From Halocafeteria seosinensis (lineage: Eukaryota), in assembly GCA_001687465.1 (NCBI GenBank), contig LVLI01000003.1, positions 62,001-91,303 of the forward strand: a stretch of DNA of 29,303 bases, written 5' to 3'. Positions 4,232 through 29,303 of this stretch are shown one piece after another; position 1 is the first letter of the stretch; each line of letters starts with the position of its first letter. Below the pieces are notes generated by a model. The model did no database searches. It saw only the letters and a list, made by a program, of their open reading frames with translations, and was not told the DNA's origin. Position numbers and translations under genes: made by a program.

Positions 4232-5586
4232 TTAGCTCTTCACGGGGCCGCCCTTGCCTCCAGTGGTCTTCAAGCCAACAAGCGTTTTGAAACTATCATA
4301 GATCCACCACTGAAGACCTGTGAGAGTACCGATCATCAGAATACGAGGGACAAGACCGCTAAGGGCAAGGTTGAAGAAGCCGTGCTCTTTAATGATGGCA
4401 CCAATACCACCACCGGACTTCTGGTTCAACTTCGAGACAATGGTATCAGGTGCTTGAGATACAATGGCACACAAGACACCAGCGGTGTATCCGGAAAGGA
4501 AAGTGACAAGGAGCTGCGTGCTCTTGGTGTAGCTCTCCTTGGGGGCAGTGAAAACGAATGTATAGAATCCTTCGACCACACGCTCGAAGGCAGCGAACTT
4601 CACCATGGTATAAGGAATCTGACGTCCCCATAGAGGTCCAAGACCCTTGAAAAATCCGTTCATTCCTTCGTTTTGCTTGATACGGCTAACAGCGTCCTTA
4701 AGGTTGAGCGGGAATTTCGCATCCTCGGGAGAGGTTTGCATCCGTACTTTCACAGATTCCATTGGGCACAAAGCAACATCAGCAATGAATTCAGCAGATG
4801 CGGAGGCACACAAGAAAATTCCAGTCCGCCACTTGAATGCGGTTTCGGGGTCAAAGAATCCAGAGTACAAGTCCTGCATTTGACCACGTCGTCAAGAATA
4901 TCGGATGCGCAATAACAACCATATTAGAGCACATACCTTGAAGATCTCGTAAAATCCGAACTTGCAGAACCCTTGCATGCTATATCCAATCAAAGTGGGT
5001 GCCCAACCGATGGTGTATCCTCCTTGCTTGCCGAGCGTAGAGAAGCCGCTTATGATTCCCGGGTAGAGTTCGGGGTTGGTCTGTGAATCAAAAGAACAAA
5101 AAGGGGGTTGGTAACTCTCAAGGGCGCACAGTGGGGGAGCCCAGTAGTACAGGGACATTGAGTCTTCCCTACCAAATCGGGCTTTATACAAGAACAAATG
5201 ACCATTCTATGCTCCATGCCGTGTATAGCACACAAGCACCCTTTTCCTCATGACGTATGAGATGTCCCTCATGTCCGCGTGTTTAGCGCCATTCAGCTAA
5301 TTTCGTGGAAGGACGATAAATTGCTTACCTGCATTCTGCATTTGACGATATCCAATGGAGTGATGGCTGTATGCGTGAGACCGCATGAGAGGATTCCTCC
5401 AGTCATGCACTTGGCGTAGTAGCTGGCATCATGCTCTTTATCGTGCCCTAAGAAAGCGGTCATGGGCTTTTCGCTCGTGGTGGTCGTAACATCTTTTTGT
5501 TGTTTCAGCTGAGGGGAGCTCACAGGGGCTGGGAGGAGCGACATGCTCCCTCCAAGAGCGCTTGGATCATACAGATTACGAAACAT
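4232..5586 (-). CDS. SLC25A3: Mitochondrial phosphate carrier (SLC25A3/Pic2/Mir1 family), 3 exons, about 347 aa
   Basis: Exons 5586-5329, 5080-4937 and 4873-4232 are in frame across GT-AG introns. Three carrier signatures ([30 protein letters not shown]) and family motifs [24 protein letters not shown] and [18 protein letters not shown]. Confidence 0.95.
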
Positions 5587-6327
5587 TGTGTCTATCTAAA
5601 AAGATAAGGATTTCGGACTCCTTTACCGTGCGAAGCAAAAGTCTAACGATGTCCCGAGGAAAAGCTAGCCAGAAACGCACTTCTGCTAACCCTTTACAAT
5701 CCGTACGACTCTAACTTCTTGGCCCTGGCAAGGAGATTCCTCCCAGGTGCGGAAAACATGTAGGAAGGAAGCGGAACCGAAGTTCCAACTTCCAGGATTG
5801 TATAAGTTGGTGCCTCCTCCGAACCAGTTTGCCTATAGGACCCTACACATAGAAATGTGAATCGTGCGAGAAGGAAGACAGCAGCAGCTAGCTCTGCCGC
5901 AATCATCGGCACTCAGGCAGGAGATTCCTGTCCAGGTGGCTGAGGCCAGCCCAGGTCACGTTTGAAGGATTCCCAGTCCACCGAGAATTCAGACAAGGAC
6001 GCACCACTTTGAAGGGGATACCTTAATGTAACGGAGGCTCTACTACTTCAGCTGTCGCGGCCGTGAGACATTACCTGGTAGTAGACCGAGATACACCGTG
6101 GCCTACCGACTACGAGAACTACCAAGGGTAGTTACGGACCCTCACGCTCCCGATTGCCCTTCACAATTGCTCAACGCTAGCATCTGGCATGATTGGAAGG
6201 CTAACCGAGAACTTAGAGGAAGCTTGGTGCAGCCTGAACTTTCCCGCCGGAATTCCTGTCGATTCCTAACGATAGATTCCGCATCGGTGGATCCTTTAGC
6301 GCAACATACCATGACGTTAGCTCTGTA

Positions 6328-6359
6328 TACCATAGGATGCAGAAATAAGGGCCGATTCT
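6328..6359 (+). repeat. Left TIR of the pogo-like transposon
   Basis: Reverse complement of 8166-8197 at 31 of 32 positions. The core AAGGGCCGATTCT is repeated subterminally at 6399-6411. Confidence 0.92.
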
Positions 6360-6584
6360 CTCGTAACTTGAAGTTGCAAATTTTCAGATGTCAATTTAAA
6401 GGGCCGATTCTACAAAACGGTCATATTTGGATTATTTGAGGGTGTTTGATGGATTGTAAACCATCAAGATATAAAGAAAATACATTTGCATTGTACTATA
6501 TTTCTCTTACATGGATTATATTTCCATAGGAGTGGAGAAAATGGATGGGACAGTCTCGTGGCTCGACTGCGCGCCAAAAATTGG

Positions 6585-6875
6585 CTAAAAAGCACTAACG
6601 TGGTCCTCCTGGAGAGATGACGCATGCTTCCAGGTGTTTTCAGTGTATGTATAACCTTTCCACTTGACAAGAAGGTGCTGTTCTTCTTTGTCTTTCTGCA
6701 AGAAGCTCTCCACATCAAACTGGCTAGGTGGTAAGTCATGCGCACATGGATCCGAATCCGACTGTTCCTCTTGGTCAATGGCCTCTTGCAGCTGCTTTAC
6801 AAGAAAGGATTTTCGGAACCCTAGCACCGGTAAACCCCTTGCTTTGTACATTAGCTCTAACTCAGAACGGGTCAT
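6585..6875 (-). pseudogene. SAP-like domain plus chromodomain fragment inside the transposon
   Basis: MTRSELELMYKARGLPVLGFRKSFLVKQLQ fits the SAP consensus (LtvaELkelLkarGLpvsGkKaeLverL). FDVESFL...LLVKWKGYTYTENTW fits the chromodomain consensus with F/W/Y cage residues. Confidence 0.75.
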
Positions 6876-6899
6876 GCAAGAGGATCTCCCAGTATGACC

Positions 6900-8105
6900 G
6901 CTTGACCTGGAAGAAGTCGGGCGGCCAAATGCTTCGATTCTTCAATGGCTGCGCAATGCTCCGATGGTCCGCGCTGTTGGTACGTATTATATTCCCAGTC
7001 TTTGTGTAAAATCCATGTTTCAAATGTGGGAAGCAATTTGCCGCAGACTGTTCGATCCCGAAAGTGATGGTACGCGACGAAATTCGCTAAGGGCAGAATT
7101 GCTTTGTTTAGCAAGTTTTCCAGAATGCAATTGCGCCCCATCCGTTCGCTTAGATACAGCTCTCTTGCAGCTCCCCCGAAGCCGGCCTCATCTGCGTCGT
7201 CTTGAGATTGTCTGCAGGATATCAGTTCTTAACTTGTCCGCTACAACACCGAACACGCTCAAATCGCAAGGCTGCAGTTTGCAGGTTATACGGGCCGGAA
7301 TGTAGCTCAACCCAATCAGTGGATACTTAACTGATTGTGGATACTTTCCTTGCGGAATGACTTTCTGGTGTGCACGGGTGGAGCGCCTTTTGGCAATCCG
7401 GGAATAATGGCAGGAGTCTGACCACATGCTCATTCAATTTGGCCACGATTTACTCTTCAGACATCCAGTGGTCGATATTACTCTCATTTATGTATGCATG
7501 AAGTATTCGTATTTCGCCGAATAGCCGTGCCATGCGGCCTTATTGGGACGAAACGGAGATAGTTTGTTTTGGTGGGAACAACAACATGGGTCAACAGCAG
7601 TTCTCCACACGCATTCACCACGGGAGTCATGGTGGTCTGTCTTTTCTCGCTTGACGCAAGAAAGGAAGCAGGTTCAGTTCCCGCATAAATCGTCGTCTTC
7701 TACTTGCACCCGCTGCGGAGTAGAATTCTACATTCTTTCGTCCCTGGTACAAGTAGGTAAGAAGCGGCAATCTACACTCCAGGGTTATTATGGTTACTGA
7801 GGATGAATGTGATAGGTTCTCGTGCGTCAGAGCTGCCTACGACTCCTGGAAGGCGTGTGAGATGTGTGACTAAAGCTCGGCAGTCGAACTTCACAGTGTA
7901 CATTTTTCCGCAACGGGTTCGCGAACGTTCTGGACGTTCGCAACTTCAACCATCCCAAGGGGGAGGCAAAGGGGACACACAAAATGACCCCTGGCCACTT
8001 TTTCAGCCCTCTTGAGACCAAGAAATCGGGCAATATCTTTATAACCAGAAATGCTTTGAAAGCAAAAATTTGACAGAGTACATAAAATATGATTGCCTTC
8101 CTCAT
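6900..8105 (-). pseudogene. Frameshifted pogo/CENP-B-type (DDE_1) transposase
   Basis: Motifs in the expected order but in different frames with stops: PFASPLGWLK (HTH, cf. FxaSxGW), EKRQTTMTPVVNACGELL (about 7650-7590), HWMSEE (about 7470) and YIPARITCKLQPCDLSVFG (cf. lPpntTsklQPlD). Confidence 0.8.
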
Positions 8106-8165
8106 GGTATTGCTCTCTATCCAATTGAAGACCTGAATAAAGGCGGCAATAATAAGGGCACATTT

Positions 8166-8197
8166 AGAATCGGCCCTTATTTCTGCATCCTAGGGTA
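8166..8197 (-). repeat. Right TIR of the pogo-like transposon
   Basis: AGAATCGGCCCTTATTTCTGCATCCTAGGGTA, an inverted copy of 6328-6359. Confidence 0.92.
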
Positions 8198-8608
8198 TAT
8201 AACCAAGAGGCAGAAGCGAAACCAGTTGAATTCTTTTGGAACAAGAATATGAACACCAAACCCAAATTTAAGGTTGGGACAAATGTAAGAATTAGCAGAG
8301 TTAAAGGGAAGTTTGAGAAAGAAGTAAGTCAAAATTGGAGTGAAGAGATTTTTCGAATAAGTGAAGTAAAAAAGACAGATCCACCCACGTATAAAATTCA
8401 GGATATAGAAACAGGTGAAGAAATCGAAGGTATTTTCTATGAACCGGAGCTTCAGGCGACTCGAGTAGATCCACAACAATACTTAGTTGAAAAAGTTATT
8501 AAAACAAGAAAAAGAAAGGGACAACCGAAAGAAGTATTGGTCAAATGGTTGGGATTTCCGGACTCAAGAAATACCTGGATTCCAGCTAGCGAAGTTAAAG
8601 ACATTTAG
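8198..8608 (+). pseudogene. C-terminal fragment of a Polinton/Maverick-type rve integrase (SH3-like region plus chromodomain)
   Basis: PKFKVGTNVRIS...FEKEVSQNWSEEIFRI...PPTYKIQD..GEEIEGIFYEPELQ followed by YLVEKVIK...VLVKWLGFPDSRNTWIP is the typical Polinton integrase tail. The frame is open back to the transposon junction (8198 YNQEAEAKPVEFFWNKN). No DDE core is present. Confidence 0.85.
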
Positions 8609-8630
8609 AAGAATAAAAAAAACACTATGG

Positions 8631-8675
8631 TTCTTTTTGACTCTACTTTTTCTTGGAAAGAAAAAGAGAATATTT
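8631..8675 (+). terminator. Intergenic hairpin repeat B, copy 1
   Basis: TTCTTTTTGACTCTACTTTTTCT-tggaa-AGAAAAAGAGAA downstream of the integrase stop. Near-identical to 11574-11618 apart from the loop. The terminator role is inferred. Confidence 0.6.
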
Positions 8676-8695
8676 CTTAGAATAGTATATAGAAA

Positions 8696-9472
8696 ATGGA
8701 AGATGAAAAAGATAACCTACATATTGGAATAGAACCAGGTGTTTACAAAATGATCATTTCGGTTGAAGAATTGCGAGAAGTCAAATATTTTTTGAATAAA
8801 GGAGCTGACAAAGAATTGGTTATTATTCAAAGTGTATTAAACGGAGACTTAGAAATATTTAGGTATTGTATTGAACAAGGAGCAACAATAAGCTTTATAT
8901 TTCCGTTTTTGTATGCGAAAGCTATAGAAGAGAAACAAAAAGATATTTTAAGGGAACTTTTTGAGTATCATTGTCCAAAGTATAAACAAAAAGATTTTTT
9001 ACTTGATGCACTTCACGGAGCGATTGAAAACTGCTTTAAAGAAGGTGTTAAGTATTTAATTGAAAAAGGGGCTTCTGTTCCAAATATCAGTGGCAGGAAA
9101 ATCACAAATTATATTAAAAAAGAAAGAGATGATTTCTTTGATTATGTTGAAATTTTTAGTTATCTGTTTTCTGCTGGTTTAGAACTAACTAAGCTTAAGA
9201 AAAAGCAAAAATTGATTTTCTTCTCTGGCTTAGTTGATTTAAGTTGGCAGAAGCATAATCACAAAAGATTTTTAGAGAATCGAGGTTTTGAAATTATAAA
9301 CAACTTTTTCTATCAAACATATCCACATTTGAAAAACAGTGACGAAAATTGTATGATTTGTTTTGATAATGAAGTTAATAGGAAAACTTTAAATTGTCAT
9401 CACACACATGTTATATGCATAAATTGCCTAAATCATATGACAGCTTGTCCACTAGATGGGATACTCATATAA
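8696..9472 (+). CDS. Ankyrin-like repeat protein with C-terminal RING finger (putative E3 ligase)
   Basis: Ankyrin-like segments VLNGDLEIFRYCIEQGA and LHGAIENCFKEGVKYLIEKGASV. RING pattern CMIC-x11-CHHTHVICINC-x6-CPLD. Confidence 0.8.
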   Translation: MEDEKDNLHIGIEPGVYKMIISVEELREVKYFLNKGADKELVIIQSVLNGDLEIFRYCIEQGATISFIFPFLYAKAIEEKQKDILRELFEYHCPKYKQKDFLLDALHGAIENCFKEGVKYLIEKGASVPNISGRKITNYIKKERDDFFDYVEIFSYLFSAGLELTKLKKKQKLIFFSGLVDLSWQKHNHKRFLENRGFEIINNFFYQTYPHLKNSDENCMICFDNEVNRKTLNCHHTHVICINCLNHMTACPLDGILI

Positions 9473-9477
9473 CATAC

Positions 9478-9550
9478 TTTTTAATCTCGACGAACGTTAG
9501 TTCTAGAGATAAGAAAATTTCTTAAACCAAAGGTTTGGCGAAAGTTTTAC
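9478..9550 (+). repeat. Multi-hairpin repeat A, copy 1
   Basis: TTTTAATCTCGACGAACGTTAGTTCTAGAGATAAGAAAATTTCTTAAACCAAAGGTTTGGCGAAAGTTTTAC, just after the ankyrin-RING stop. Other copies at 10272-10331 (+) and 11486-11556 (-). Confidence 0.9.
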
Positions 9551-9562
9551 CTAATTGTTATA

Positions 9563-10276
9563 ATGAAATTAGGTAAAAAATTAGGTTCAGCTTTTAAATT
9601 GGGCGTGAATTTTAGCGACCCCATTGGAAACCAAAGAATAGGAAGAAACATAAGTGAACTATTTAGCTTTGATAGAGGAAACGTTGACGAATTAAATACA
9701 AATGAAAAGCTAAGTGTGTTAATGAGCTCACAAGCTTATAAAAAAGTTCAAGACCGTGAAAATGTAAGTGACTTTAGATATATAGAGCAACTAAGCAACC
9801 AATTTACAGCAGTCTATTTTAAAGCTGAAACAAATACTTTATTTATTGCTTTCAAAGGTACAAGCACAATTGGCGACGTTTTTACAGATATTGAGTTTGC
9901 AAGTGGTGCAGAAAATATAAGTGTTAGTTTTAATAATGCTCTGGCAACTTTTGACGCTGTTGTTCAAAATATTCGACCTTCAAAAGTTTATCTATGTGGG
10001 CATTCTCTTGGTGGTGGATTTAGTTTATTTGTAAACATGCGTAGGGAAGATATTAGCCACACTTATGCAATAAATCCAGCTTTTAACCTTACAAATATAG
10101 CACAATCGCTTAAAAATTCACAAATCAAAAGCGTAACAATTTTAAAAACCCCAGATGATGCAGTGAGTTTTTTAAGTTTATTTTCTCGTTTCAATGTTAA
10201 AACTATCCCAGTACCTGAGCCAAATATTATTGGAAATCATCAATTAGGAACTTTTATGGATTTGGCGAATATTTAA
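9563..10276 (+). CDS. Class 3 lipase / alpha-beta hydrolase
   Basis: IAFKGTS..DVFTD oxyanion/lid motif, nucleophile elbow GHSLGG, candidate Asp (PDDAVS) and His (GNHQL). Confidence 0.9.
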   Translation: MKLGKKLGSAFKLGVNFSDPIGNQRIGRNISELFSFDRGNVDELNTNEKLSVLMSSQAYKKVQDRENVSDFRYIEQLSNQFTAVYFKAETNTLFIAFKGTSTIGDVFTDIEFASGAENISVSFNNALATFDAVVQNIRPSKVYLCGHSLGGGFSLFVNMRREDISHTYAINPAFNLTNIAQSLKNSQIKSVTILKTPDDAVSFLSLFSRFNVKTIPVPEPNIIGNHQLGTFMDLANI

Positions 10277-10331
10277 TCTCGTCGAACTTTAGTTCTAGAG
10301 ATAAGAAAATTTCGTTTTAGCGAAAGTTTTA
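10272..10331 (+). repeat. Multi-hairpin repeat A, copy 2 (third hairpin partly deleted)
   Basis: TTTAATCTCGTCGAACTTTAGTTCTAGAGATAAGAAAATTTC...GCGAAAGTTTTA. It supplies the lipase TAA stop and lies between convergent genes. Confidence 0.9.
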
Positions 10332-10366
10332 AGTAGTTTGGTTTTGAAATTACTTAAAATGATAAA

Positions 10367-11203
10367 TTAAAGACCTTTAAACAATTTTTTAAGTTGATTA
10401 TTTTGGGGTTCTGGTTGAGGATTTGCAGAAGCTGGAGTTGTTCCAATATTTGAAGTTGGTCTTCGTCTTGAATTTCGACTTGGCTGTTTCATTTCAGAGT
10501 AACCAAAACGACTAAATGGGTCACTTGGATTTGTGCTTAATGGTCTTGGATTTTCTGGAATTGTTTGAGAATATGGATTATATGGCTCATTAGTTGGTCT
10601 TTGTGGTTGTGGAATGGGATATGGTTGCGGTTGTGGTTGAGTATAATCATATAAATTTCCTTGTGGTTCTGGGTAATATTGTGGTGTTGCTGTTGGTTGC
10701 AATTGTGGTTCATATCTTGCTCCATATAACTGATTGGGATCAACGTAATTTATTGAACTTTGGTTTTGATTTGGATTTTGATAATACGGAGAATTTGCGT
10801 AACATGCTGGGTGTGTCATTTGTGGGTTATATGTTTGATTATTTTGCTGTTGTTGTTTCTGTTGTCTTCTTTCTTCTGCTTTTTTTCGTCTTCCTTCTTT
10901 CATTCTTTCAATTGCTCTTTCTCTTGCTGGTGTCATTTTCCTTTTATATTGTTTCCCATTCTCTTTTGGTTTCTCTTCTTCTGCTGGTTTTTGTGGTTGT
11001 TGCTGTGGTTGATTTTGTTGAATCATTAACCTTTGTAATTGTTGAGGAGTTAAACTTATTTTATTAGAAGTTTGGCTTGATGTTTCTGGTTGTGATACTT
11101 GTTTGGTTTCCTCATTTTCCTCACTACGTCCTTCTTGCTGTGCTAACATTCGGTTTATAGTCTCTACGTCTAATTCTACGTTTTCATCGTTTTCGTTACT
11201 CAT
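10367..11203 (-). CDS. Viral Q/P/N-rich low-complexity protein with a basic coiled segment
   Basis: 278-aa ORF with TATATA upstream. Acidic N-terminus, basic helix KRKMTPARERAIERMKEGRRKKAEERR, and a P/Q/Y-rich disordered tail. Confidence 0.75.
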   Translation of the reverse strand: MSNENDENVELDVETINRMLAQQEGRSEENEETKQVSQPETSSQTSNKISLTPQQLQRLMIQQNQPQQQPQKPAEEEKPKENGKQYKRKMTPARERAIERMKEGRRKKAEERRQQKQQQQNNQTYNPQMTHPACYANSPYYQNPNQNQSSINYVDPNQLYGARYEPQLQPTATPQYYPEPQGNLYDYTQPQPQPYPIPQPQRPTNEPYNPYSQTIPENPRPLSTNPSDPFSRFGYSEMKQPSRNSRRRPTSNIGTTPASANPQPEPQNNQLKKLFKGL

Positions 11204-11274
11204 CGTTATACTATATATGTAAATTTTAATTCTATAACGTATTACGTAAAATGTAATTTTTTGTTATAAATATA

Positions 11275-11466
11275 ATGAATAGTGAACAAGAGACCCAAGA
11301 AAAAGAGAAACCTTCACCAATCACTTACGAAGAGTTACTTCAAAAATATCCACCTGAATATTTGGACCAAATTGAGGGTTTGCAACCAGTTCCAGAAGTT
11401 ACAAATGAGGAGATTAATAAAATGCTTAAAAATTACGAAACTCAAAAGAAACTGGGTAATATATAA
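11275..11466 (+). CDS. Small acidic viral hypothetical protein (63 aa)
   Basis: ATG preceded by TGTTATAAATATA. The stop is followed directly by a hairpin (11468-11488). Confidence 0.6.
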   Translation: MNSEQETQEKEKPSPITYEELLQKYPPEYLDQIEGLQPVPEVTNEEINKMLKNYETQKKLGNI

Positions 11467-11485
11467 ATACCTTTTTCCCAAAAAA

Positions 11486-11556
11486 GTAAAACTTTCGCTA
11501 AACCNAAGGTTTAAGAAATTTTCTTATCTCTAGAACAAAGTTCGTCGAGATTAAAA
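11486..11556 (-). repeat. Multi-hairpin repeat A, copy 3 (inverted)
   Basis: The reverse complement matches copy 1 except in two loops and one stem base. Confidence 0.9.
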
Positions 11557-11573
11557 TCAAAAAACTATAACGC

Positions 11574-11618
11574 TTCTTTTTGACTCTACTTTTTCTACGC
11601 AAGAAAAAGAGAAAATTT
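11574..11618 (+). repeat. Intergenic hairpin repeat B, copy 2
   Basis: TTCTTTTTGACTCTACTTTTTCT-acgca-AGAAAAAGAGAA, just upstream of the MCP start region. Confidence 0.85.
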
Positions 11619-11644
11619 AATTTATATATAATATATATATAATA

Positions 11645-13084
11645 ATGTCAAGTTTAGATCAACAGCCACTATCAAATGTTGGACAAGCTCAACCACAAGG
11701 AGAATCTCAAGGCTTACAACCTGAACCACCTCAAAGAAGTGGATTAAATAGGAGAGATGTGCACTTTGATCCCAAATTGCAAAGCTCAAATTTTAAAACA
11801 CTTGAAAACTTAAGTTCTCGGCAGTCTGTTCGCATAAATCCAGAAGCCGGATTGGGTGACTATAATCCTGGTTCAACTGTAGAGTGGACAATTCAAAACA
11901 CTTCAGCTCTCTCGGATACTCAAAACAGTCATTTAGAATTTGATTTTGTTAATTCTAACCCTGGTGACAATATTCCATCGGATGGTTTAGATGTTTTACT
12001 TGATAATTTAGAACTTCAAATTGGTGACCAAACAATTGAAAAAGTTTCAGATGGAGCAAGATATTACCAAATGTTATTGAGATCAACCGCACACCAAAGC
12101 TATTACGATAATGAAGCAAATGCACTCATGAAATCTTGGAAATATTTGAGTTATCATAAAAAATATAATGTTGTTCATCCTGCTAATAGTTATGATGATA
12201 GCAGTGATGATAATAACACTAACATCATGACCGCTTATTATTCAGCTAATGGAACTATAAAATGTATTATACATTTGGATAACTTAAGTTTTTTCCGTCA
12301 AGCAAGGTTTAAACCAATGTTCACAGCTATTAAACTCAGTTGGAAATTGCCGGAAGCTCAAAAAGTAATGGAAAGAAGACGTGATAATAATGCCCAAAAT
12401 GCTCCTTCATATACCGTTAGAAATCCAGTTTATATAAGTTCCCAAGTTTATCCAGATGCTTCATTATTGGAAAGTCTTCATTCTCAAATTTTTGAAAATC
12501 AACAAGGGTTAGCAATGGCACTACCCGGAGTTGTGGAAACTTATCGAAGAAGTTTGTCGCAATCTACACAAAATAATATTACTATTCCGGCATCTTTCTC
12601 AGATATTGAAAGTATTATATGTTTACCTGTTAGAAGAGCAACTTCAAGTACAACAGATGATATAAATGTAGGTACGTTTAGAACAGGTAATAATGTCACA
12701 CTTAAAAATTTTGGTGTTAATATTCAAACCGAAGATTTAGCAATGAAAGGAGGTTATAGAAACATGGAAGAAGCTTATAGAGGTTTAAGACAAACTTTTA
12801 ATTTCTTGGGAGATGTTGGCGGAAATGGTATGATTGATTGGGATACATTCAACGCAACACTTGGAAATGGTGGCTTTGCGCCTTTGGCAGTCAATACAAG
12901 TTTGTTAATGCATGCACCTCCCGAAGTTTTATCAAATGGACTGAGTACGCAAGATATGGGTAGTCAAATTAATATAAATCTTGAAACTGAAAATAATATT
13001 GGTGGTAATATGGATTTGCTTGTTTTTGTTTTGCATAAACGTATTTTGATGATGCAACAAGGTATTATTAAGATTGGTATTTAA
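11645..13084 (+). CDS. Major capsid protein, double jelly-roll (Polinton/PLV type)
   Basis: 479 aa, beta-rich. The N-terminal VRINPE..DYNPGSTVEWTIQ..LSDTQNSHLEFDF and LLDNLELQIGDQTIEKV, and the C-terminal LLVFVLHKRILMM, follow the Polinton/PLV MCP pattern. Clustered with ATPase and mCP. Confidence 0.85.
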   Translation: MSSLDQQPLSNVGQAQPQGESQGLQPEPPQRSGLNRRDVHFDPKLQSSNFKTLENLSSRQSVRINPEAGLGDYNPGSTVEWTIQNTSALSDTQNSHLEFDFVNSNPGDNIPSDGLDVLLDNLELQIGDQTIEKVSDGARYYQMLLRSTAHQSYYDNEANALMKSWKYLSYHKKYNVVHPANSYDDSSDDNNTNIMTAYYSANGTIKCIIHLDNLSFFRQARFKPMFTAIKLSWKLPEAQKVMERRRDNNAQNAPSYTVRNPVYISSQVYPDASLLESLHSQIFENQQGLAMALPGVVETYRRSLSQSTQNNITIPASFSDIESIICLPVRRATSSTTDDINVGTFRTGNNVTLKNFGVNIQTEDLAMKGGYRNMEEAYRGLRQTFNFLGDVGGNGMIDWDTFNATLGNGGFAPLAVNTSLLMHAPPEVLSNGLSTQDMGSQININLETENNIGGNMDLLVFVLHKRILMMQQGIIKIGI

Positions 13085-13123
13085 AATGTTAAGAAAATTT
13101 TGAACTATGATATATAGATCAAA

Positions 13124-14194
13124 ATGACACATTTCTTTAAACATAATCGTGGAACATTTGACATAAAAGGTTTTCATAAAAGTGACAATTTTGAGACTGT
13201 TGATGAGTCTCTTGCCACAGTTAATCAATCAAAAAGAGGTGGAAGAACTATTTTAGAACCTTTTTATAAAGAACGTCAAAACGGTTATGAATTTTGTGGG
13301 CAAGAAGGCTTACAACCAAGAAAAGAATTTATTCAACCACTAGAACAATCTAATTTTGTAACTCCTCCTTTAGAGTATCAAACACGATTGAGAGCTGGTA
13401 GAAATATACCAAAATGGTATGGACATTTTCAAGGTCCTGGAATTCCTGAGCCTGAAGTTCCTATCGGCAATAAATACTTTAAAAATTATCAGCAAGACGT
13501 TCCGCTTAGTGATTTGGCTCGCGATTTCTTTCGTACTGGCATAGGTGCTTTAAATAATACTCCTCCTATGCGAGATAGACAAAGTTTAATAAACTTTTTG
13601 CAACAATCTGGTTTATTTAGAGAAGAAGACGAAAATAAAAGTCTGGCTTCACTTGCTCAAAAAATACAAGAACAGAGCGGACGAGCTGGAGCACCTGAAA
13701 ACCCTTTTAATAATGATCCTGTTTTTAGTCAAATTTTGCAACGTATTCGCAGTAATCCACAAGTTACCAATTTAACACCTCAACAACTTCAACATCGTCA
13801 GGCAGTTGCCCAACAAAATCAAGCAAATCAAGAATTTCAACAAGGAGCACAACAGCAACAAACTCAACAACAAACTCAGCAACCGGCGAGAGGTTTTAAT
13901 TTTGATTCTGATCCTTCTAGCTCATCATTTCCAGCACCTAATTCTGGTGCACAGCCTCAAGAACAAGTAGCTCCAGAATCTAATCAAAGTATAGAACGAG
14001 CACCACGATTTGGGAGAACTGAAAACGGACGCCAAGAAGTTATTACCACTCTTAATGGTCGTGAAGTTAGAGGCTGGGTCGGTGATAGAGGTGGTATATA
14101 CTCCAATGCGACAAGTCGAAATACAATACCACCAGTTTCAGCACATAGGCGAGCTATTAAAAACGCTTTTGAACGATTAAGACAAAATGGTTAA
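13124..14194 (+). CDS. Viral hypothetical protein with a Q-rich linker and basic C-terminal domain
   Basis: 356-aa intact ORF between MCP and ATPase. The C-terminal NGREVRGWVGDRGGIY resembles GxRGGxY-type basic adaptor motifs. Confidence 0.75.
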   Translation: MTHFFKHNRGTFDIKGFHKSDNFETVDESLATVNQSKRGGRTILEPFYKERQNGYEFCGQEGLQPRKEFIQPLEQSNFVTPPLEYQTRLRAGRNIPKWYGHFQGPGIPEPEVPIGNKYFKNYQQDVPLSDLARDFFRTGIGALNNTPPMRDRQSLINFLQQSGLFREEDENKSLASLAQKIQEQSGRAGAPENPFNNDPVFSQILQRIRSNPQVTNLTPQQLQHRQAVAQQNQANQEFQQGAQQQQTQQQTQQPARGFNFDSDPSSSSFPAPNSGAQPQEQVAPESNQSIERAPRFGRTENGRQEVITTLNGREVRGWVGDRGGIYSNATSRNTIPPVSAHRRAIKNAFERLRQNG

Positions 14195-14215
14195 AAATTT
14201 ATCTACATTATATAA

Positions 14216-15199
14216 ATGCCGAATTGGATTTCGATCTTATCGAATAAAAAAAAGAAAGAAAATAGTTTTCGTTATGTTGTTGTTGGTGGTACTCGATCCG
14301 GAAAATCCACACTTTTACATAATTTAATCTTTAAATTACATAAATCAGAAATTAAACGCGTAGTTTTATTTGGTGGTAAATCTGCTTCAAATGAGGAAAT
14401 GAAAGATATCTTTAAAAAGGAAAAACCTCCTTTTGATTTGGAAATACATAAAAATTATAATGATGAAAAAGTTGGAGAAATTTTTAAACAAATTGAAACA
14501 GACAAAACAAAAAGAAGTGGAAAACAAACAGTTTTTATATTCGAAGATTTAATGGCAGAAAACGCCAGCAACAAAACTAAAAATAATAATATCGATCGTG
14601 TAATTAAGAACGGAGGTGAGTTAAATATTTCTTCGATTATAACAACCCAAAAATATACTGACGTTAAAACATCAACTAGAAGCGGAAATATTAGCAAACT
14701 TTTTTTATTTGAGATCCCTGATAATGAAATTACTCTCGTTCATCGAGAACAAAACTTAAAAATTGGGAAAGATGATTTTAAAAAAATAGCTAGCGAAGCA
14801 ACCGAAACAAAATACGAGTTCATTATAATAGATCAAAAAGCTGAAATCAATGAAAAACTGAAAGATAGCGACTTTAACGTTATCAAACCCGAAGAAAAAG
14901 AAGATAAAAAAGAAGATGAAGCCGAAGTTTTAAAAGGAAAATCAGCAAAAAAGGCAAAACCCACAAAAGTTAATTTGGTTAAATTTCTAAAACCTGGTAA
15001 AGATGACAATGAAGCAAAGTTTTACGCTATCTTTCAAGTAGGAAAGGAAATTAAAAAAGTCCCAGTGGGTGACAATGTGAAAGGTAATGGAAATGTGTCA
15101 GATCCTACAAACCCAGAAGTTTTAGTTAAAGAACTGCTAAACAGAAATAAACCTTTTAAAGAAAATTTGAAACAGTTTCGAGAAAAATTTAATGTCTAA
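14216..15199 (+). CDS. A32-like (FtsK-HerA) genome packaging ATPase
   Basis: Walker A GGTRSGKST, Walker B VFIFED, ISSIITTQKY (conserved Q), downstream R..N (TRSGN) and YEFIIID. Confidence 0.88.
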   Translation: MPNWISILSNKKKKENSFRYVVVGGTRSGKSTLLHNLIFKLHKSEIKRVVLFGGKSASNEEMKDIFKKEKPPFDLEIHKNYNDEKVGEIFKQIETDKTKRSGKQTVFIFEDLMAENASNKTKNNNIDRVIKNGGELNISSIITTQKYTDVKTSTRSGNISKLFLFEIPDNEITLVHREQNLKIGKDDFKKIASEATETKYEFIIIDQKAEINEKLKDSDFNVIKPEEKEDKKEDEAEVLKGKSAKKAKPTKVNLVKFLKPGKDDNEAKFYAIFQVGKEIKKVPVGDNVKGNGNVSDPTNPEVLVKELLNRNKPFKENLKQFREKFNV

Positions 15200-15200
15200 A

Positions 15201-15226
15201 TTTTACTTTTTACCAAAAAAGTAAAA
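15201..15226. terminator. Perfect hairpin between the convergent ATPase and mCP genes
   Basis: TTTTACTTTTT-acca-AAAAAGTAAAA, an 11-bp stem filling most of the 33-bp gap between two stop codons. Confidence 0.65.
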
Positions 15227-15232
15227 AACTAT

Positions 15233-16048
15233 TTAACTTCTTGGTATGAAGAAGTACTCAAATTCGAGCACCACATTACCCCCATTTAACTCCATTTGAT
15301 TATACTCCTCATCAATTATAGCGAAATCAATAACTTCTAAATCATCATTCACTATACTAGAAAATGTTTGTTCGTCGCTATATTCGCGAACTAATTCATC
15401 ACCAAAAGAAACATCATTAAAAATCGAAGCTATAATAGGCTGGTTTCTACTCTTAACTAATTTATAATTTTGTGTGTCTCCAAGTGTGTTTGATATTATA
15501 TGATACACAGCAGTATTTAATAATTTGGGTAATCCAGCAACATCAAATGTTTCACCTCCTGAAATTTTATGTTGGGTGCTGTCTCTTATAATCCCAATTT
15601 TATGATGTGCCGAGTTTTCTAAAGTTACCGTTTGAAATATAGGATTTAAAAAGGTGTTAATAATATAAAAAGGCTCACTATCAGCATTTGTAAAACTAAA
15701 CCTTTGTTTAGATTCATTAAAAACAGCAGTTATATTATGTCCCCTATTAGCAAAAAAATTATTCATAAAGTCTTCTAGTTCTGTCCCATCTTGATAAACT
15801 CGATCAGTATCAAATTTTAATTCTGTTAAATTTGGACCACTATCCAATTCCCTAACATAATATAAAACATTGTTGTATTCTGAAAATGTATAGGCAGTAT
15901 TTGGCAGAGCTACTTTTTTAAGTCCTATTTTTACATTTGATTTTAAAGAACTAATAGCCTCCTTCAGATAAACACTGAAATCCGAATTTGAGTCATTTGT
16001 TTGTCTATCTATTCTTGAGTTTATTGTTAATCTAAATTTATTTGACAT
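15233..16048 (-). CDS. Minor capsid (penton) protein, single jelly-roll
   Basis: N-terminal LTINSRIDR...SDFSVYL...IGLKKVALPNTAY and C-terminal IDFAIIDEEYNQMELNGGNVVLEFE match the PLV/NCLDV penton consensus. 271 aa. Confidence 0.88.
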   Translation of the reverse strand: MSNKFRLTINSRIDRQTNDSNSDFSVYLKEAISSLKSNVKIGLKKVALPNTAYTFSEYNNVLYYVRELDSGPNLTELKFDTDRVYQDGTELEDFMNNFFANRGHNITAVFNESKQRFSFTNADSEPFYIINTFLNPIFQTVTLENSAHHKIGIIRDSTQHKISGGETFDVAGLPKLLNTAVYHIISNTLGDTQNYKLVKSRNQPIIASIFNDVSFGDELVREYSDEQTFSSIVNDDLEVIDFAIIDEEYNQMELNGGNVVLEFEYFFIPRS

Positions 16049-16059
16049 CTATATATTTA

Positions 16060-16716
16060 TTATAAATTTTCTGGTATATAGTTCCATCCTATTTTTTCAC
16101 ATATTAATTTCCACATATAATTAGCATTCTGCAAACCCTTCATATTTACATAACAATGTTTTACATTAAGGTACTTTATTACCCATTTTTCTTCTATTAA
16201 TTCTAAAAGTTTCCTTAAAATAAAATTATAATTTGGTAAGTTGTACCTTTCGTTCGGTCTGGCGTATGTCCAATTTATTTCTATTCTCTTGAACATTCTC
16301 AATAATTTATCTTCTATATGTTTACTTATCGGTTCTGGTCTATATCCTGTTAATTTATAATAAATAACTGAAATATGTGGATAATACATTGTTTTTCGTT
16401 TACTTTTTAAGTATTTATAAATTGTTTCATGCTTATAATTTAAATTTCTCTCTTGATGATATTTTTCAATTTCATTCATTAATCTCCTTGTNATTTGTCT
16501 GGTTTCAATTCCTTGCATTGATAAAATTATTCTATGGAAATTATGGGTTTGAATGCTGTCCACCTTTCTCATATACAATTTGGGTTGTGCCTCTATATAT
16601 TGATCTTCTATAAACGGTCTTTCTTCGCAAATTATTCCACATTTTGAATTGGTGCAACTATATGAACTTTCATCATTCAAAGCTAAACTTTTCTTTTTAC
16701 ATTCTGGACATTGCAT
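16060..16716 (-). CDS. VLTF3: VLTF3-like late transcription factor (poxvirus A2L family)
   Basis: N-terminal Zn ribbon (CPEC...CTNSKCG). Motifs HNFHRIILSMQG, YYPHISVIYYKLTG..P, RMFKRIE, RYNLPNYNFILRKL and WKLICEKIGWNYIP occur in VLTF3 order. One N at 16492. Confidence 0.9.
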   Translation of the reverse strand: MQCPECKKKSLALNDESSYSCTNSKCGIICEERPFIEDQYIEAQPKLYMRKVDSIQTHNFHRIILSMQGIETRQXTRRLMNEIEKYHQERNLNYKHETIYKYLKSKRKTMYYPHISVIYYKLTGYRPEPISKHIEDKLLRMFKRIEINWTYARPNERYNLPNYNFILRKLLELIEEKWVIKYLNVKHCYVNMKGLQNANYMWKLICEKIGWNYIPENL

Positions 16717-16759
16717 TATATATAGTTTTAAGAAAAAGATAATTTATATATAGTATATA

Positions 16760-16870
16760 ATGAAAGTTGGCAAAAATCCGCAAGACATCCAAAAAGCTGG
16801 TGAAAAAGCTAAAAGAATGCTTCGTTTAGGTGAATCCGCTCTAGAAGCTTTTCAAAGACTGAAATCTTAA
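16760..16870 (+). CDS. Small basic peptide (36 aa)
   Basis: MKVGKNPQDIQKAGEKAKRMLRLGESALEAFQRLKS, with TATATA immediately before the ATG. Below the ORF-track cutoff. Confidence 0.45.
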   Translation: MKVGKNPQDIQKAGEKAKRMLRLGESALEAFQRLKS

Positions 16871-16894
16871 TATGGAACTGGTTAACGTTCTATA

Positions 16895-17047
16895 TTAATC
16901 TTGTTCTTTATGCTCTTGTTCTTGTTCGCTATTTCCTATATGCATTCGACAATCACTATTAAACATATTATCCTTTAGCAACTTAGATAAAAAACCAAAT
17001 ACTAAACCACCTATAGCACTTAATGTAGGTACTAAAGCATCAACCAT
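16895..17047 (-). CDS. Small putative membrane protein (50 aa)
   Basis: MVDALVPTLSAIGGLVFGFLSKLLKDNMFNSDCRMHIGNSEQEQEHKEQD. N-terminal hydrophobic helix, acidic tail, AT-rich TATA-like upstream. Confidence 0.5.
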   Translation of the reverse strand: MVDALVPTLSAIGGLVFGFLSKLLKDNMFNSDCRMHIGNSEQEQEHKEQD

Positions 17048-17136
17048 TTCTATAATATATTACAACAATTAGTTCATTTATATTAAACTTCTTGACACTA
17101 ACTAATAAAATTTAATGCACTAATATATAAAAGAAT

Positions 17137-19877
17137 ATGTCGTACATATCAACAACCAAATCAAACAATGTTAGTGTAGGAGAAGGCTTAAAAAAAGATG
17201 GGGCGAAAATTACTTTTGATAATGAATTGTTGTTCACCAAAACAGAAGTTCTACAAAAAATTGACGAACACGCTACCCAAGACGCTGATTTAAATAATTA
17301 TTATACCAAAACCGAGGTTGACAACGAATTCACCAACTTTAATAATAATATCAATACACTTTTAGATAATGAGTATTACGACCAATCACATATTGATACA
17401 AATTTTTATACGAGTGCTCAAGTGGATACTAAATTAAACGATGAGTATTACGACAAATCACACATTGACGCAAATCATCTTACAACATCAAAAACAGTAG
17501 ATACTATTAACGCTAACTTAGAGGATTATTATGATAAGGCCGAAATAGACACAAATTTTTATAATAAAATAGAAGTTGATGATAAATTAGACCTAGCAAA
17601 ATTTCAGTTCACTAGTTATGAAATAGAGGATATTCGAGATTTTTGGGCTTTTAATGATACATTCACAGAAGACTACGAAATCAATAGTGAGGTTACTGGT
17701 GGAAATCTCCTTAAAATAAAGAGTGGTTCACTCAATGTTGGAACAATAGCAAACCAGTTAAGAGCTTATTATTCATTTGATGATGTTAATAATCCTTTTG
17801 AAGATAGTATAGGTTCTTTTAACGGTACTAATAACGGTGGAGTTATTACAAGCAATGCAAAGATAGATAAAGGTGTTTCATTTAGTAATGGTGATACATT
17901 TATTAACGTTGGTTCAGTTCTAGGTTATACTACGGAAGATTTTACAGTTGCGTGTTGGTTTTATCCTACAACTGATAGTGATAATCAAATGTTATATAAT
18001 GTTGGTAGCTCATCACAAGATGCTCAAAGTCATCTAATATACAATTTTTCACCAAATAAAATATCTTTTAGAGATGTTAATAATAATAATCAAATTGATT
18101 CAGTTACTGATATTTCATTAAATCAGTGGTATTATATTACAGTAACGAGAGTAGGAACTAGCCTTAATATATATATTAATGGTCAATTAGATAATACTGG
18201 TACGGTTACTAGTGGTACATTATCAGACCCTTCAAACAATAGTACAATCTCTAGAGGAGCTACTGGTATACTTAATGATGGTCGTATTGATGAATTTGGT
18301 ATTTTTGTTTAGAGAGCTATCAGATAGTGAAATTGATTTTTTATATAATAGCGGAAACGGTGGAAATATAAGTGAAATTGTTGGTGATTTTTTACAAAGT
18401 ACTGAAGGACTACGGGTTAATGCTTTTCATCAAGTTGAGGACGTTTATTTAGAAGATGTGGATAAAACCCAAAACACTATTCAATAATATTTCCTATTTA
18501 ATGTGGATTGGTGACAGTGCTGAAACAGCTATTTCAAATAAGCAATTGTTTATCAGTTATGATAAAACAGATGATTCTATCCGAATAACCGGAAATAATG
18601 CAACAACAGCTACTAAAGAATTAACTTTAGATACTTGGGCTCACTTAGCCTTAGTAGTTGACAAAGCAAACGATAATGTTAAACTCTATGTTGATTCTGT
18701 TGAAACATTACAAATTAATGGTTTAGAAGCTTCAATCGGAACAACTCTAAGGTTAGGTGGTGGTTATTTAGATGGGAGCGGAAATCCAGTTGGAACATCT
18801 GAAACGGTCTTTGATAAAGTTTTATTCTTCACTCGTCCTTTGAAAGAGTTTGATATAAAGAATTTGTATCAAGTAAGAGGTCAATTTAATTTAAACCAAA
18901 TACCAACCGCTCATTTTTATTATAAAAATGATGTTGATTCTAATTTTCTTAAGACAGATGGAACTAATAATATGACTAATAATTTGGACCTATCAAATAA
19001 TAAAATTGTTAACTTAAATCCCCCAACAAATCCAAAAGACGCAACTAATTTAAGTTATCTTGAACAAAATTATTATAATAAAAATACAGCCGATTTTTTA
19101 TATCTTTTTAGGGATGGAGGCAATTCAATGGAGGGTGATTTAACTTTTGCTAATGGTGCTAGTATAACTTTAAATGATACTGATATGGATGCGGTAAACA
19201 ATAAAATAATTAATGTTAATGACCCAACTTTTGATAGGGATGTGGTTAATTTACAATTTGCGAATAGTAATTATTTAAGTCTTGACGGTTCTAATTCTAT
19301 GACATCAAATATAGATGCAGGTAATAATAAACTTATTAATGTAAATGATCCCACTAGTAATAAGGATGCTGTTAATTTACAATATTTTAATTCAAATCAA
19401 ACTGGATCTTTACCCAAGGTTTATAAATTTACACAATCGAGCACGCCAACAATTAGCAATGGAAGTACTGAAACATTACAAAAAATTAGTGCCGGTTTAC
19501 CATTGAATTATTATTATTGTCATGTAGAACTAATAATATCAGTTGATGAAAATGAAACTGGAGTAACTGAGGAATTTACTGCAACATACAGTATAACTGA
19601 TGATGTAGGAACAAATAACGATCCCATTCAATCTTTAGCCCATTGGAATCCGGGTCTTGGTGGTTCAACTGGTGCTTATTCTCAAACGTTTTCTGGTGTA
19701 ACAAATGACCCACAATATAAAAACTTTTATTTTACTTTTGATATAATAACAGATGAAACTGAAAATTTAACATTTACATTTGATGTAACAAATAACTCTG
19801 GTAGTAGTACTGATGTGAATTTTATGCAACATAAAGTTAGAGCACACGCAATAAAAACACCTTCACAATTTCCTTAA
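17137..19877 (+). pseudogene. Fibre/receptor-binding-like protein with two LamG (ConA-like) domains, split by two +1 frameshifts (912 aa if repaired)
   Basis: YYTKTEVD-type repeats, LamG domain 1 (AYYSFD...FTVACWFYP...WYYITVTR...IYINGQL...GRIDEFGIF), LamG domain 2 (MWIKP...WAHLALV...LYVD) and three D.xNNKIxNxNxPT..xDAxNLxY shaft repeats. Removing one base near 18310 and one near 18455 fuses the three ORFs. Confidence 0.8.
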
Positions 19878-19880
19878 TTT

Positions 19881-19907
19881 ATATAATACTAAAAACTAGT
19901 ATTATAT
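19881..19907 (+). terminator. Perfect hairpin after the fibre gene stop
   Basis: ATATAATACTA-aaaac-TAGTATTATAT, an 11-bp stem starting 4 nt after the stop. Confidence 0.6.
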
Positions 19908-20124
19908 TTATTCTTTCAACGTGACAACTTTTGAAATTTCCCATTGAGAAGTGTGTAAGTAATTTCGATGGAAAATTACAAACTTATAGAAGTGTAAAAG
20001 ACGGGTTCAGCCACTGTTAATTAAACAGAAGTTATACACTATAGTTTTTTAAAAAATTTCCCATTGTAAAACCTGTAATGTATTTTTACCCGATGAAGTA
20101 CACTTATGATTATTTACATGTCGC

Positions 20125-20356
20125 TTTACGGTTGCACCTTGACAACGTTCTGGTTTTTAGCGTTGACAATCGTTTACCTCTCTCACTGCTATTTGTCAAC
20201 TCTATCTTCTGTTTTTGTATGGTTACACTTTCTTCTTGACAACACTTTACTTTCTTGCATTGACACCCTTGCAATCTCCCACAATGCTGTTTGTCAACTT
20301 TAACTTCTGTACATGACAGCTTACGGTTACTTCTTGACAACGCTTTGTTTTTATGC
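20125..20356. repeat. Degenerate ~97-bp tandem repeat (about 2.3 units) near the right end of the virus
   Basis: TGACA at 20140/20237/20335 and 20164/20261, TGTCA at 20194/20292 (offsets 97-98). Shared blocks TGCTRTTTGTCAACTYTAWCTTCTGT and TTACGGTT...CTTGACAACG. Confidence 0.75.
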
Positions 20357-21550
20357 TAATTACCCATGCAATGTTTCAATGGTGTTTGGTGGGCTTGGGC
20401 TTAGCTACAAAGCATTTCGTTAAGGTGTGCCATCCATAGACATTGTACTCTACTTGCCCTATCAAATAATTACCATCTACATGATACGTTGAGGTGTGAA
20501 ACCTTTCGGAATGTGACGCATCAATATTATTGACTGGTTGGTCATGCAAGTACAGTACCGCCGGGGGTATTTACGCTTTGGTTCCTTCGCTTCGTTATTG
20601 CCTGAGACTTGCTAACCCACACACACACTGCTACACAACTTTACCGGTACTTCCTCTACCAAGGAAAAACGCTACCAACACTTCCACCGTGTATCGACTG
20701 CCGCTGGCACTGCTGTCATCTGGAAGCAGAGCAACGACACCGCATCTATCTGGGGTTCTCCTACCGCTCACTCGGAAGGGAAAACGGAGGAATATGACCG
20801 GTGCCTTACTTCAAGCCGCCCGCTTGTGGGTGTAGAGTGTGGTGCCTCTGTATCTACGCGGTTTAATACTGTCCGGTACAGTTTAGTCATTACATTTTAA
20901 GCTGACAGTTTGATCGCATACAATAACAAAACAAGTTTTTTCTCATCAGACCTTTACGCTTCCGAACTTCACTTCAAGTCGGGAAGCGTCTCCCGCTGGG
21001 GATCGTCGTCCATACGCATTTTATTGCTATTGTAGCATTATATGTACTGTATAATGGTGGCAAACCATTCATATACTATCTGCATGTAGTGTAATACACT
21101 CGTCCTCGATACAGTGTCTAGGGACTTGATCAACAACTACTGTACACTGTAGACAATACGAGCGGTTGATTTAAGTCCCTTTATTTCTGTCGAAGACGCC
21201 ATTGCTTGGGGATGCCTCCTCTTTGGTGCCGCATTGATGAGCATCCCCACGTTTACTTCCTTGAGCTGGCAGCTAATCGTTAAAGCACAAAATTAAATGA
21301 CTGTTTTTACGAAGTTCTGTTTTTGTTTCTAACTCTGACGTCGAAACTTTCTAAGTCAGAGCTTAAGTCGTTGACTCCCCAGGAAGTCGTATCGTTTTAA
21401 ACAAAGTTGTCAATGATGGCAGCCCCAGTGTATACGTATTGTTAGCTAAATAATGATGGCCAAACTGTCTACAAGCTGACCACCAGATCCATGAGAAATT
21501 GGGCGCCGATATAGATTATTACATTATCGAAAGCATTGAAAGAACAGGTC

Positions 21551-29180: not shown

Positions 29181-29303
29181 AGCTTGCTATTAGAACGCAG
29201 TCTTCCCACACAAATTGTGTCCCCTTTCAACTACCGATACAGTCTTCGGACACACACTGTGTGACGTACTTAAGAAACAAGGCCCTCAAAGCTCTACTTA
29301 GCC

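What the first reader, a model, noticed from the sequence alone, without database searches (positions are those of the whole stretch)
6328..8197. pogo-like transposon carrying SAP and chromodomain modules downstream of the DDE domain
Seen: between the TIRs, on one strand, the order HTH, DDE_1 motifs, SAP, chromodomain with intact aromatic cage residues. Known: chromodomains steer integration in chromoviruses and occur on Polinton integrases, but are not a standard part of pogo transposases. Inference: the ancestor encoded a chromatin-targeted cut-and-paste transposase, which would favour insertion into silenced elements such as this provirus. The fusion is inferred because the copy is frameshifted.
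Basis: partly seen in the sequence, partly recalled or inferred. Interest (0 to 1): 0.72.

Follow-up and report, generated by a model that had tools for sequence, protein, structure and literature searches.

The report
Dead pogo transposon with chromodomain tail
This is a broken copy of a multi-copy cut-and-paste jumping gene that carries a chromodomain (a predicted histone-mark reader), likely once fused to the end of its cutting enzyme, which would let it choose landing sites by chromatin state, though that steering is untested.

Summary
The element is real: a 1.87-kb pogo-like DNA transposon (6330-8195) with 30-nt inverted ends between TA dinucleotides. Its minus strand holds a decayed DDE_1 core (60 bits against 19 for shuffles), a weakly supported SAP-like helix pair and a clear chromodomain with three cage aromatics. 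The HTH never scored above chance. The tail is not private to this copy: contigs of a roughly 10% diverged sibling run from chromodomain to DDE core, and a 45%-identical SAP-chromo protein exists. Fusion is inferred, not shown (about 70%): the transposase tail frame overlaps the SAP-chromo frame, but no intact copy or sense-strand splice was found. The targeting story has no support here. The element is not inside an intact provirus. It joins host DNA upstream of a mitochondrial carrier gene to a Polinton-like virus whose integrase core and left part are missing. RNA-like runs show splicing on the antisense strand only. Ten literature searches found no pogo-chromodomain fusion, and 0 of 20 reference pogo proteins had such a tail. 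All read data come from one study. Verdict: probably a new domain variant of pogo; chromatin-guided insertion about 30%.

The parts
6328..6329 (.). TA target-site duplication, left (most likely)
   Evidence: sequence; boundary inferred from loose ends behind 8197 in other contigs
6330..6359 (-). 3' terminal inverted repeat, 30 nt
   Evidence: one mismatch to the other arm
6360..6584 (-). AT-rich 3' subterminal region, no long reading frame in the chromodomain frame; likely 3' UTR
   Evidence: GC 0.37 against 0.47-0.49 in the coding part
6585..6722 (-). chromodomain with F6719, W6662, Y6653, followed by a stop
   Evidence: PF00385 E 3.4e-8; 58 PDB sequences at E <= 1, nearly all chromodomains, best CHD1 E 1.8e-4
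6723..6758 (-). acidic and proline-containing linker between the SAP-like part and the chromodomain
   Evidence: translation; shared in part with P0003
6759..6875 (-). SAP-like helix-loop-helix (weak support)
   Evidence: model pLDDT 74.5; Foldseek ranks 1-5 at E 1-3; no Pfam hit; 58% identity to P0003 over this part
6865..7086 (-). open 74-codon stretch holding the likely post-catalytic transposase tail; overlaps the SAP-chromo frame by 77 nt. One sibling type has a strand switch at 6877/7053
   Evidence: match to L044 at 7038-6930, 28.5 bits, 0 of 150 shuffles, but only 1 of 24 references this strong; joint
7196..7735 (-). decayed DDE_1 (pogo-type) catalytic core spread over three frames; third Asp at 7265, candidate second Asp near 7398, first Asp not recognisable
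7946..7970 (-). possible remnant of the HTH_Tnp_Tc5 recognition motif (not above chance)
   Evidence: no Pfam or relevant PDB hit
8166..8195 (-). 5' terminal inverted repeat, 30 nt
8196..8197 (.). TA target-site duplication, right (most likely)
6731..6791 (+). 61-nt GT-AG intron of an antisense transcript
   Evidence: joint in runs X2-X4, absent in X1; canonical ends
6980..7046 (+). 67-nt GT-AG intron of an antisense transcript
   Evidence: joint in runs X2-X4, absent in X1; canonical ends
8198..8608 (+). right flank: 3' remnant of a Polinton-type integrase with its own chromodomain; the catalytic core is not in the window
   Evidence: 8231-8596 matches residues 377-496 of the 503-residue frame in L042, 45%, E 9e-25, and no earlier part matches the window; PF00385 E 4.7e-11
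5470..6327 (.). left flank: host-composition DNA upstream of a mitochondrial carrier gene (minus strand, about 5470-4232)
   Evidence: GC about 0.5; Mito_carr hits; no blastn match to 8198-21700

Best explanation
This is a dead copy of a multi-copy pogo-like cut-and-paste transposon family whose transposase likely ended in a SAP-like helix pair and a chromodomain, a tail that would tether the transposition complex to methylated nucleosomes. Shown: inverted ends with TA flanks, a DDE_1 core and a chromodomain on one strand, and sibling sequences that carry the same tail. Inferred: the ancestral enzyme cut at the ends and pasted into TA (established pogo chemistry); the tail was part of the same polypeptide (about 70%); the chromodomain cage binds a methyl-lysine histone mark while the SAP-like part grips DNA without sequence preference (from what those families do); and this tether biases insertion towards marked chromatin, as reported for chromovirus integrases (about 30% overall). 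At this locus an insertion into the integrase gene of a Polinton-like provirus was likely followed by loss of everything between that site and host DNA, by recombination between two copies or by an adjacent deletion (inferred). Present copies are likely non-autonomous and are read through on the antisense strand.
For: Family feature: single contigs in X2, X3 and X4 span 6526 to 7489-7619, from chromodomain to DDE core, with 47 substitutions and 25 gap letters in 6526-6978, so a second, diverged sequence has the same layout; a third type joins the 3' end, 276 unlike letters and the SAP part; X1 depth is 436-784 across 6511-7917 against 95-135 in the left flank (the tool warns that depth is not copy number). 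P0003 matches SAP, linker and chromodomain as one stretch (E 1.3e-8; 45% identity) and keeps the W and Y cage positions. Fusion: same strand; third Asp (7265) and the SAP ATG (6875) lie 130 codons apart in one frame; the tail frame and the SAP-chromo frame overlap by 77 nt, leaving no intergenic room; the best reference aligns collinearly up to the SAP (67.0 bits against 35.9 +/- 4.7 in 8 shuffles). Both sibling substitutions listed inside the SAP-chromo frame are synonymous (2 of 2; too few to weigh much). Unusual: 0 of 20 reference DDE_1 frames have Chromo or SAP; none of 60 DDE_1 matches in 5 assemblies shares a contig with any of 11 Chromo matches.
Against: No intact protein with DDE_1 plus Chromo was found: 0 of 34 hits carry DDE_1, and three word-seeded searches gave nothing. 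Four stops lie between the third Asp and SAP in that frame, the SAP-chromo frame has its own ATG, and pogo elements with two ORFs are reported (PMC7386202, section 8). No sense-strand splice joint inside the element is listed among 14 joints. The tail match rests on one reference picked as best of 33; a four-sequence profile gave 30 of 120. SAP support is weak and the HTH is at chance level. The context of P0003 is unknown, and its first cage position is not recognisable. All read evidence is from one study that may be the window's own source. Nothing here measures target choice, and one end lies upstream of a host housekeeping gene.
Confidence: 0.45

Rival explanations
1. The SAP-chromo segment is family cargo in a separate small ORF, or an old captured host fragment that was amplified with the element but never joined to the transposase.
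For: It has its own ATG at 6875 and a 118-codon open frame while the rest is shattered; P0003 was called as a stand-alone 103-residue protein; no fused protein was found; two-ORF pogo elements exist.
Against: The frames overlap, with no room for a promoter; same strand and, for the third Asp, same frame; no host protein among 34 hits other than P0003 matches SAP and chromodomain together.
Confidence: 0.25
2. The tail was fused, but it acts at the donor or as a brake: it lets the enzyme engage silenced copies for excision, or parks it in heterochromatin, without biasing where the element lands.
For: The two flanks differ, one viral and one upstream of a host gene; TA is the only target requirement seen; antisense spliced transcripts hint at silencing of the family (inference).
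Against: The best-studied C-terminal chromodomains on integrases steer insertion (passages in PMC12477314 and PMC6839031 citing Gao et al. 2008). No direct data either way.
Confidence: 0.25
3. The chromodomain was picked up by this copy alone, for instance from the neighbouring viral integrase.
For: A second chromodomain lies 1.8 kb away in the provirus.
Against: The two share no DNA similarity (best blastn E 0.86); the viral one scores 71 against the element's chromodomain, below at least 8 other proteins of 35 tested; diverged siblings carry the tail.
Confidence: 0.03

Closest known systems
pogo superfamily (Gao et al. 2020, PMC7386202: passages, section 8 and supplement hits seen; Dupeyron et al. 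2020, PMC7325037: passages and section 10 seen). Best fetched reference L044, CENP-B_N + HTH_Tnp_Tc5 + DDE_1
   Same: DDE_1 core, TA duplications, inverted ends of 40 nt or less beginning with C, length within 1.2-5.2 kb.
   Different: SAP-like plus chromodomain tail, not mentioned in the passages I saw (their transposon table has no column for extra domains); DNA-binding domain not detectable; candidate Asp spacing about 43, uncertain because of frameshifts; subfamily not assigned.
Chromovirus, Chronos and Ectocarpus Gypsy integrases with C-terminal chromodomains (passages of PMC12477816, PMC12477314, PMC6839031; Gao et al. 2008 not held, known here only through those citations)
   Same: A chromodomain at the C-terminal end of a DDE-fold enzyme; the working model for how this tail would act.
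   Different: Those are retrotransposons with DDE integrases and LTRs; this is a TIR element with a pogo DDD core and an extra SAP-like module; targeting is reported there and untested here.
Polinton/Maverick integrases (passage of PMC10799480; L042)
   Same: Integrase followed by a chromodomain; one such remnant abuts this element.
   Different: Different catalytic family; the two chromodomains are distant.
KDZ (Kyakuja-Dileera-Zisupton) transposases with SAP domains (recalled; the paper was not held)
   Same: A SAP module on a cut-and-paste transposase.
   Different: Another superfamily; not tested here.

Membership tests
pogo superfamily | DDE_1-type catalytic core | tested here: met
   60.4 bits against a maximum of 21.5 in 12 shuffles; Pfam DDE_1 E 0.01, below cut-off
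pogo superfamily | DDD triad with DD29-59D spacing | tested here: inconclusive
   third Asp clear at 7265; candidate second Asp near 7398 in another frame; first Asp region not above chance (108 of 120 and 120 of 120 shuffles)
pogo superfamily | N-terminal HTH DNA-binding domain (HTH_Tnp_Tc5 with or without CENP-B_N, BrkDBD or psq) | tested here: inconclusive
   short motif at the expected place, never above shuffles; no Pfam hit
pogo superfamily | terminal inverted repeats flanked by TA | tested here: met
   boundary. No empty site seen, and the two flanks probably stem from different original sites
pogo superfamily | placement in the pogo clade by a DDE tree | not tested
   the core is too broken for a single-frame alignment; only score ranking against 33 references
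canonical chromodomain (PF00385) | profile match above curated cut-off with three cage aromatics | tested here: met
   33.7 bits against 25.1; F, W, Y (cage positions recalled)
canonical chromodomain (PF00385) | binding of methyl-lysine histone tails | not testable with these tools
   needs a binding assay
SAP domain (PF02037) | profile or fold match to the two-helix SAP motif | tested here: inconclusive
   no profile hit; SAP-containing chains at Foldseek ranks 1-5 but E 1-3; not listed by VIA
chromatin-targeted integrating elements (chromovirus type) | reader domain on the same polypeptide as the catalytic core | tested here: inconclusive
   overlapping frames and collinearity, but no intact copy
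chromatin-targeted integrating elements (chromovirus type) | insertion bias towards heterochromatin or repeats | not testable with these tools
   no genome held; one site with discordant flanks

The most novel reading that the evidence does not exclude
A pogo lineage whose single transposase joined a DDD core to a SAP module and a methyl-lysine-reading chromodomain and used them to land in silenced chromatin, including proviruses: a cut-and-paste counterpart of the chromoviruses, able to break and delete endogenous viruses.
Probability: 0.3. Interest if true: 0.72.

Novelty: new variant of a known kind. Interest (0 to 1): 0.5.

Why it matters
Chromodomain-guided insertion is documented for retrotransposon integrases, and Polinton integrases carry chromodomains, but I found no report of it for pogo or Tc1/mariner transposases. 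If the fusion and the bias hold, the same targeting solution arose independently in a TA-targeting cut-and-paste enzyme, which makes target choice testable in one genome against tail-less pogo families. It would also give a route by which transposons erode endogenous viruses, as the truncated provirus here may show. If the tail is only cargo, the finding shrinks to an unusual passenger in a dead family.

Tried and rejected
1. My by-eye idea that the window copy carries the inversion of 6878-7053: no profile supported it, and the best reference favoured the window's orientation (67.0 against 45.9 bits; plus strand 104 of 150 shuffles). Rejected; the sibling type is more likely the inverted one, on the strength of one reference. 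2. Searches for intact relatives: three word-seeded protein searches empty; Atlas gave no usable hit for SAP-chromo; end-pattern scans of viral and metagenome contigs 0; related-locus scans gave one chromodomain-only locus, L001; no look-alike in earlier findings. 3. Folding SAP and chromodomain together from a single sequence gave pLDDT 45.5 and no meaningful match. 4. A coding role for the spliced plus-strand RNA: the longest stop-free run is 94 codons, the longest from ATG 70; no evidence of a protein. 5. A left end of the provirus in 5300-6327: no blastn match to 8198-21700. 6. Runs X2-X4 have no cover over 8320-10300; by the tool's own caution this is not taken as evidence that the provirus is silent, and no run is on record as RNA. 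7. The host lineage could not be determined: the Atlas did not answer for the carrier protein and no genome is held. 8. A finer table of sibling differences across the DDE-SAP junction was not obtained, so whether the breaks are private to this copy stays open. 9. Three look-ups for two papers failed; Repbase and subscription journals could not be searched.

Full report
What is there. The window holds host-like DNA of about 48% GC at both ends and a 31% GC block from 8198 to about 20000. That block looks like a Polinton-like provirus: an A32 packaging ATPase (E 2.3e-11), a lipase, LamG fibre genes and an integrase end. Between the left host DNA and this block lies a 1.87-kb element with inverted ends (arms 6326-6359 and 8166-8199, 97%; no chance match in 100 shuffles). 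Three contigs of run X1 leave the element behind 8197 with a consensus that starts CA, so the shared end includes one TA only. The element is therefore most likely 6330-8195 with TA duplications, the usual pogo layout in the table of Gao et al. 2020 (supplement hits).

The transposase. The minus strand has 19-25 stops per frame. Pfam sees only the third-Asp region, below cut-off (E 0.01). I fetched pogo references by motif from eukaryote-like contigs inside prokaryote assemblies; 20 of the 32 distinct frames from the motif scans were checked and all 20 carry DDE_1. A frameshift-aware alignment to a profile of 13 of them scores 60.4 bits over 7735-7196 against 18.6 +/- 2.0 in 12 shuffles. The motif used to fetch them came partly from the window, so the third-Asp part is not independent, but the chain extends 470 nt upstream of it. 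The copy is dead.

The tail. A 118-codon open frame (6941-6588) ends in a chromodomain above Pfam's cut-off (E 3.4e-8) with F, W and Y at the cage positions (positions recalled from HP1). The 40 residues before the linker fold as two helices (pLDDT 74.5). Foldseek puts SAP-containing chains at ranks 1-5 of 86, but at E 1-3; profiles and the wide structural search do not find SAP. I call it SAP-like.

Is the tail a family trait? Four runs of one study hold the element. X1 covers all 30 bins and skips no host intron, while X2-X4 skip introns of the neighbouring carrier gene, so I read X1 as DNA and X2-X4 as RNA; none is on record as RNA. In one search, single contigs of X2, X3 and X4 run from 6526 to 7489-7619 with about 10% substitutions plus gaps in the first 450 nt, linking chromodomain, SAP-like part and DDE core in a different copy. 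Another type joins the 3' end, 276 unlike letters and the SAP part, then switches strand at 6877/7053. A joint from 6358 to 8015 shows a short internally deleted derivative. Depth in X1 is several times that of the left flank, though the tool warns against reading this as copy number. Among 1.84 billion representatives, 34 proteins matched; 33 carry Chromo, none DDE_1, and one, P0003, matches SAP-like part, linker and chromodomain as one stretch (45% identity). It is a singleton on two contigs and its context is unknown. The chromodomain did not come recently from the neighbouring virus.

Was it fused? Not shown. For: same strand; the third Asp and the SAP ATG are 130 codons apart in one frame; the best of 33 references, L044, aligns collinearly through a post-catalytic motif at 7038-6930 (28.5 bits, 0 of 150 shuffles), in a frame that stays open to 6865 and overlaps the SAP-chromo frame by 77 nt. 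Against: four stops lie in the direct frame; only 1 of 24 references gives so strong a tail match and a four-sequence profile does not (30 of 120); no sense-strand splice is listed; no intact protein was found. I put fusion at about 70%. My own first idea, that this copy is the inverted one, failed its test.

Targeting. The right end does abut the viral integrase just before the part matching residues 377-496 of an intact Polinton-type integrase frame (L042), but the catalytic core of that integrase is nowhere in the window. The left end abuts host DNA about 0.9 kb upstream of a mitochondrial carrier gene, with no trace of the viral left end. The element marks a junction, probably left by a deletion, and may combine two original insertion sites. 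One such site says nothing on bias. The mechanism I think most likely is the chromovirus one, a methyl-lysine reader tethering the complex to marked nucleosomes with SAP adding non-specific DNA grip, but every step of it is inferred from what those domain families do elsewhere.

Transcription. X2-X4 skip 6731-6791 and 6980-7046, both with canonical GT-AG ends on the plus strand, that is, antisense to the transposase. The spliced form has no long frame. It is likely read-through or antisense RNA from one or more copies.

Against what is known. Ten full-text searches listed no paper on a pogo or Tc1/mariner transposase with a chromodomain or SAP. I saw passages of PMC5751038, PMC12477816, PMC12477314, PMC9977792, PMC10799480, PMC6411011, PMC8226279, PMC4007536, PMC6875170 and PMC6839031; passages, section 8 and supplement hits of PMC7386202; and passages and section 10 of PMC7325037. 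In those two papers a few occurrences of the search words were counted but not shown. PMC10799480 assigns transposon chromodomains to Mavericks and chromoviruses, and PMC12477816 reports repeated gains of readers by Gypsy elements. Gao et al. 2008 and the KDZ paper were not held; Repbase, subscription journals and bioRxiv supplements were out of reach and may name such an element. As controls, 0 of 20 reference frames carry Chromo or SAP, and none of 60 DDE_1 matches shares a contig with any of 11 Chromo matches in 5 assemblies, many of whose contigs are short. Unchecked notes of this scan describe reader domains on other transposase families; they are leads only.

Verdict. It works like a pogo element and meets the tested core and end criteria; the DNA-binding domain, full triad and tree placement are open. 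The SAP-like plus chromodomain tail is a family trait and probably an undescribed variant. Fusion is likely, targeting is a hypothesis. Interest 0.5.

Noticed in passing
window 8198-about 20000: Left-truncated Polinton-like provirus: integrase end, ankyrin-RING gene, lipase, a 487-codon frame without Pfam hit that may be the major capsid gene, A32 ATPase and two LamG fibre genes; no polymerase or left end in the window.
   Followed up: partly
window 6526-7489, plus strand: Spliced transcripts antisense to the transposase, from a window-identical and a diverged copy, in three RNA-like runs.
   Followed up: partly
window 6358-8015 (joint in X1): A short internally deleted derivative of about 0.2 kb, and related end variants in X2 and X3, suggest MITE-like relatives.
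   Followed up: no
window 6877/7053: One sibling type has this segment on the opposite strand, breaking it just at the start of the SAP-like part.
   Followed up: partly
window 6585-6877: CpG observed/expected is 0.49 in the SAP-chromo part against 0.98 in the DDE part; short stretch, significance not tested.
   Followed up: no
window 8612-8675 / 11555-11618, 9480-9521 / 10272-10313, 9497-9570 / 11466-11539: Conserved direct and inverted intergenic repeats inside the provirus, possibly promoter or terminator motifs.
   Followed up: no
window 26544-29186, minus strand: Intron-free 880-codon frame with a P-loop and a weak C-terminal helix-hairpin-helix hit (E 0.011); layout recalls Crinkler-like NTPase-nuclease proteins (resemblance recalled).
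   Followed up: no
L003-L041, L044-L073: Several assemblies filed as prokaryote genomes carry many eukaryote-type pogo transposases (up to 21 DDE_1 matches in one), which points to contaminating eukaryotic contigs.
   Followed up: no
L042:343-1851: Polinton-type integrase with chromodomain whose 503-codon frame begins with about 140 extra residues that resemble a viral cysteine protease by eye.
   Followed up: no
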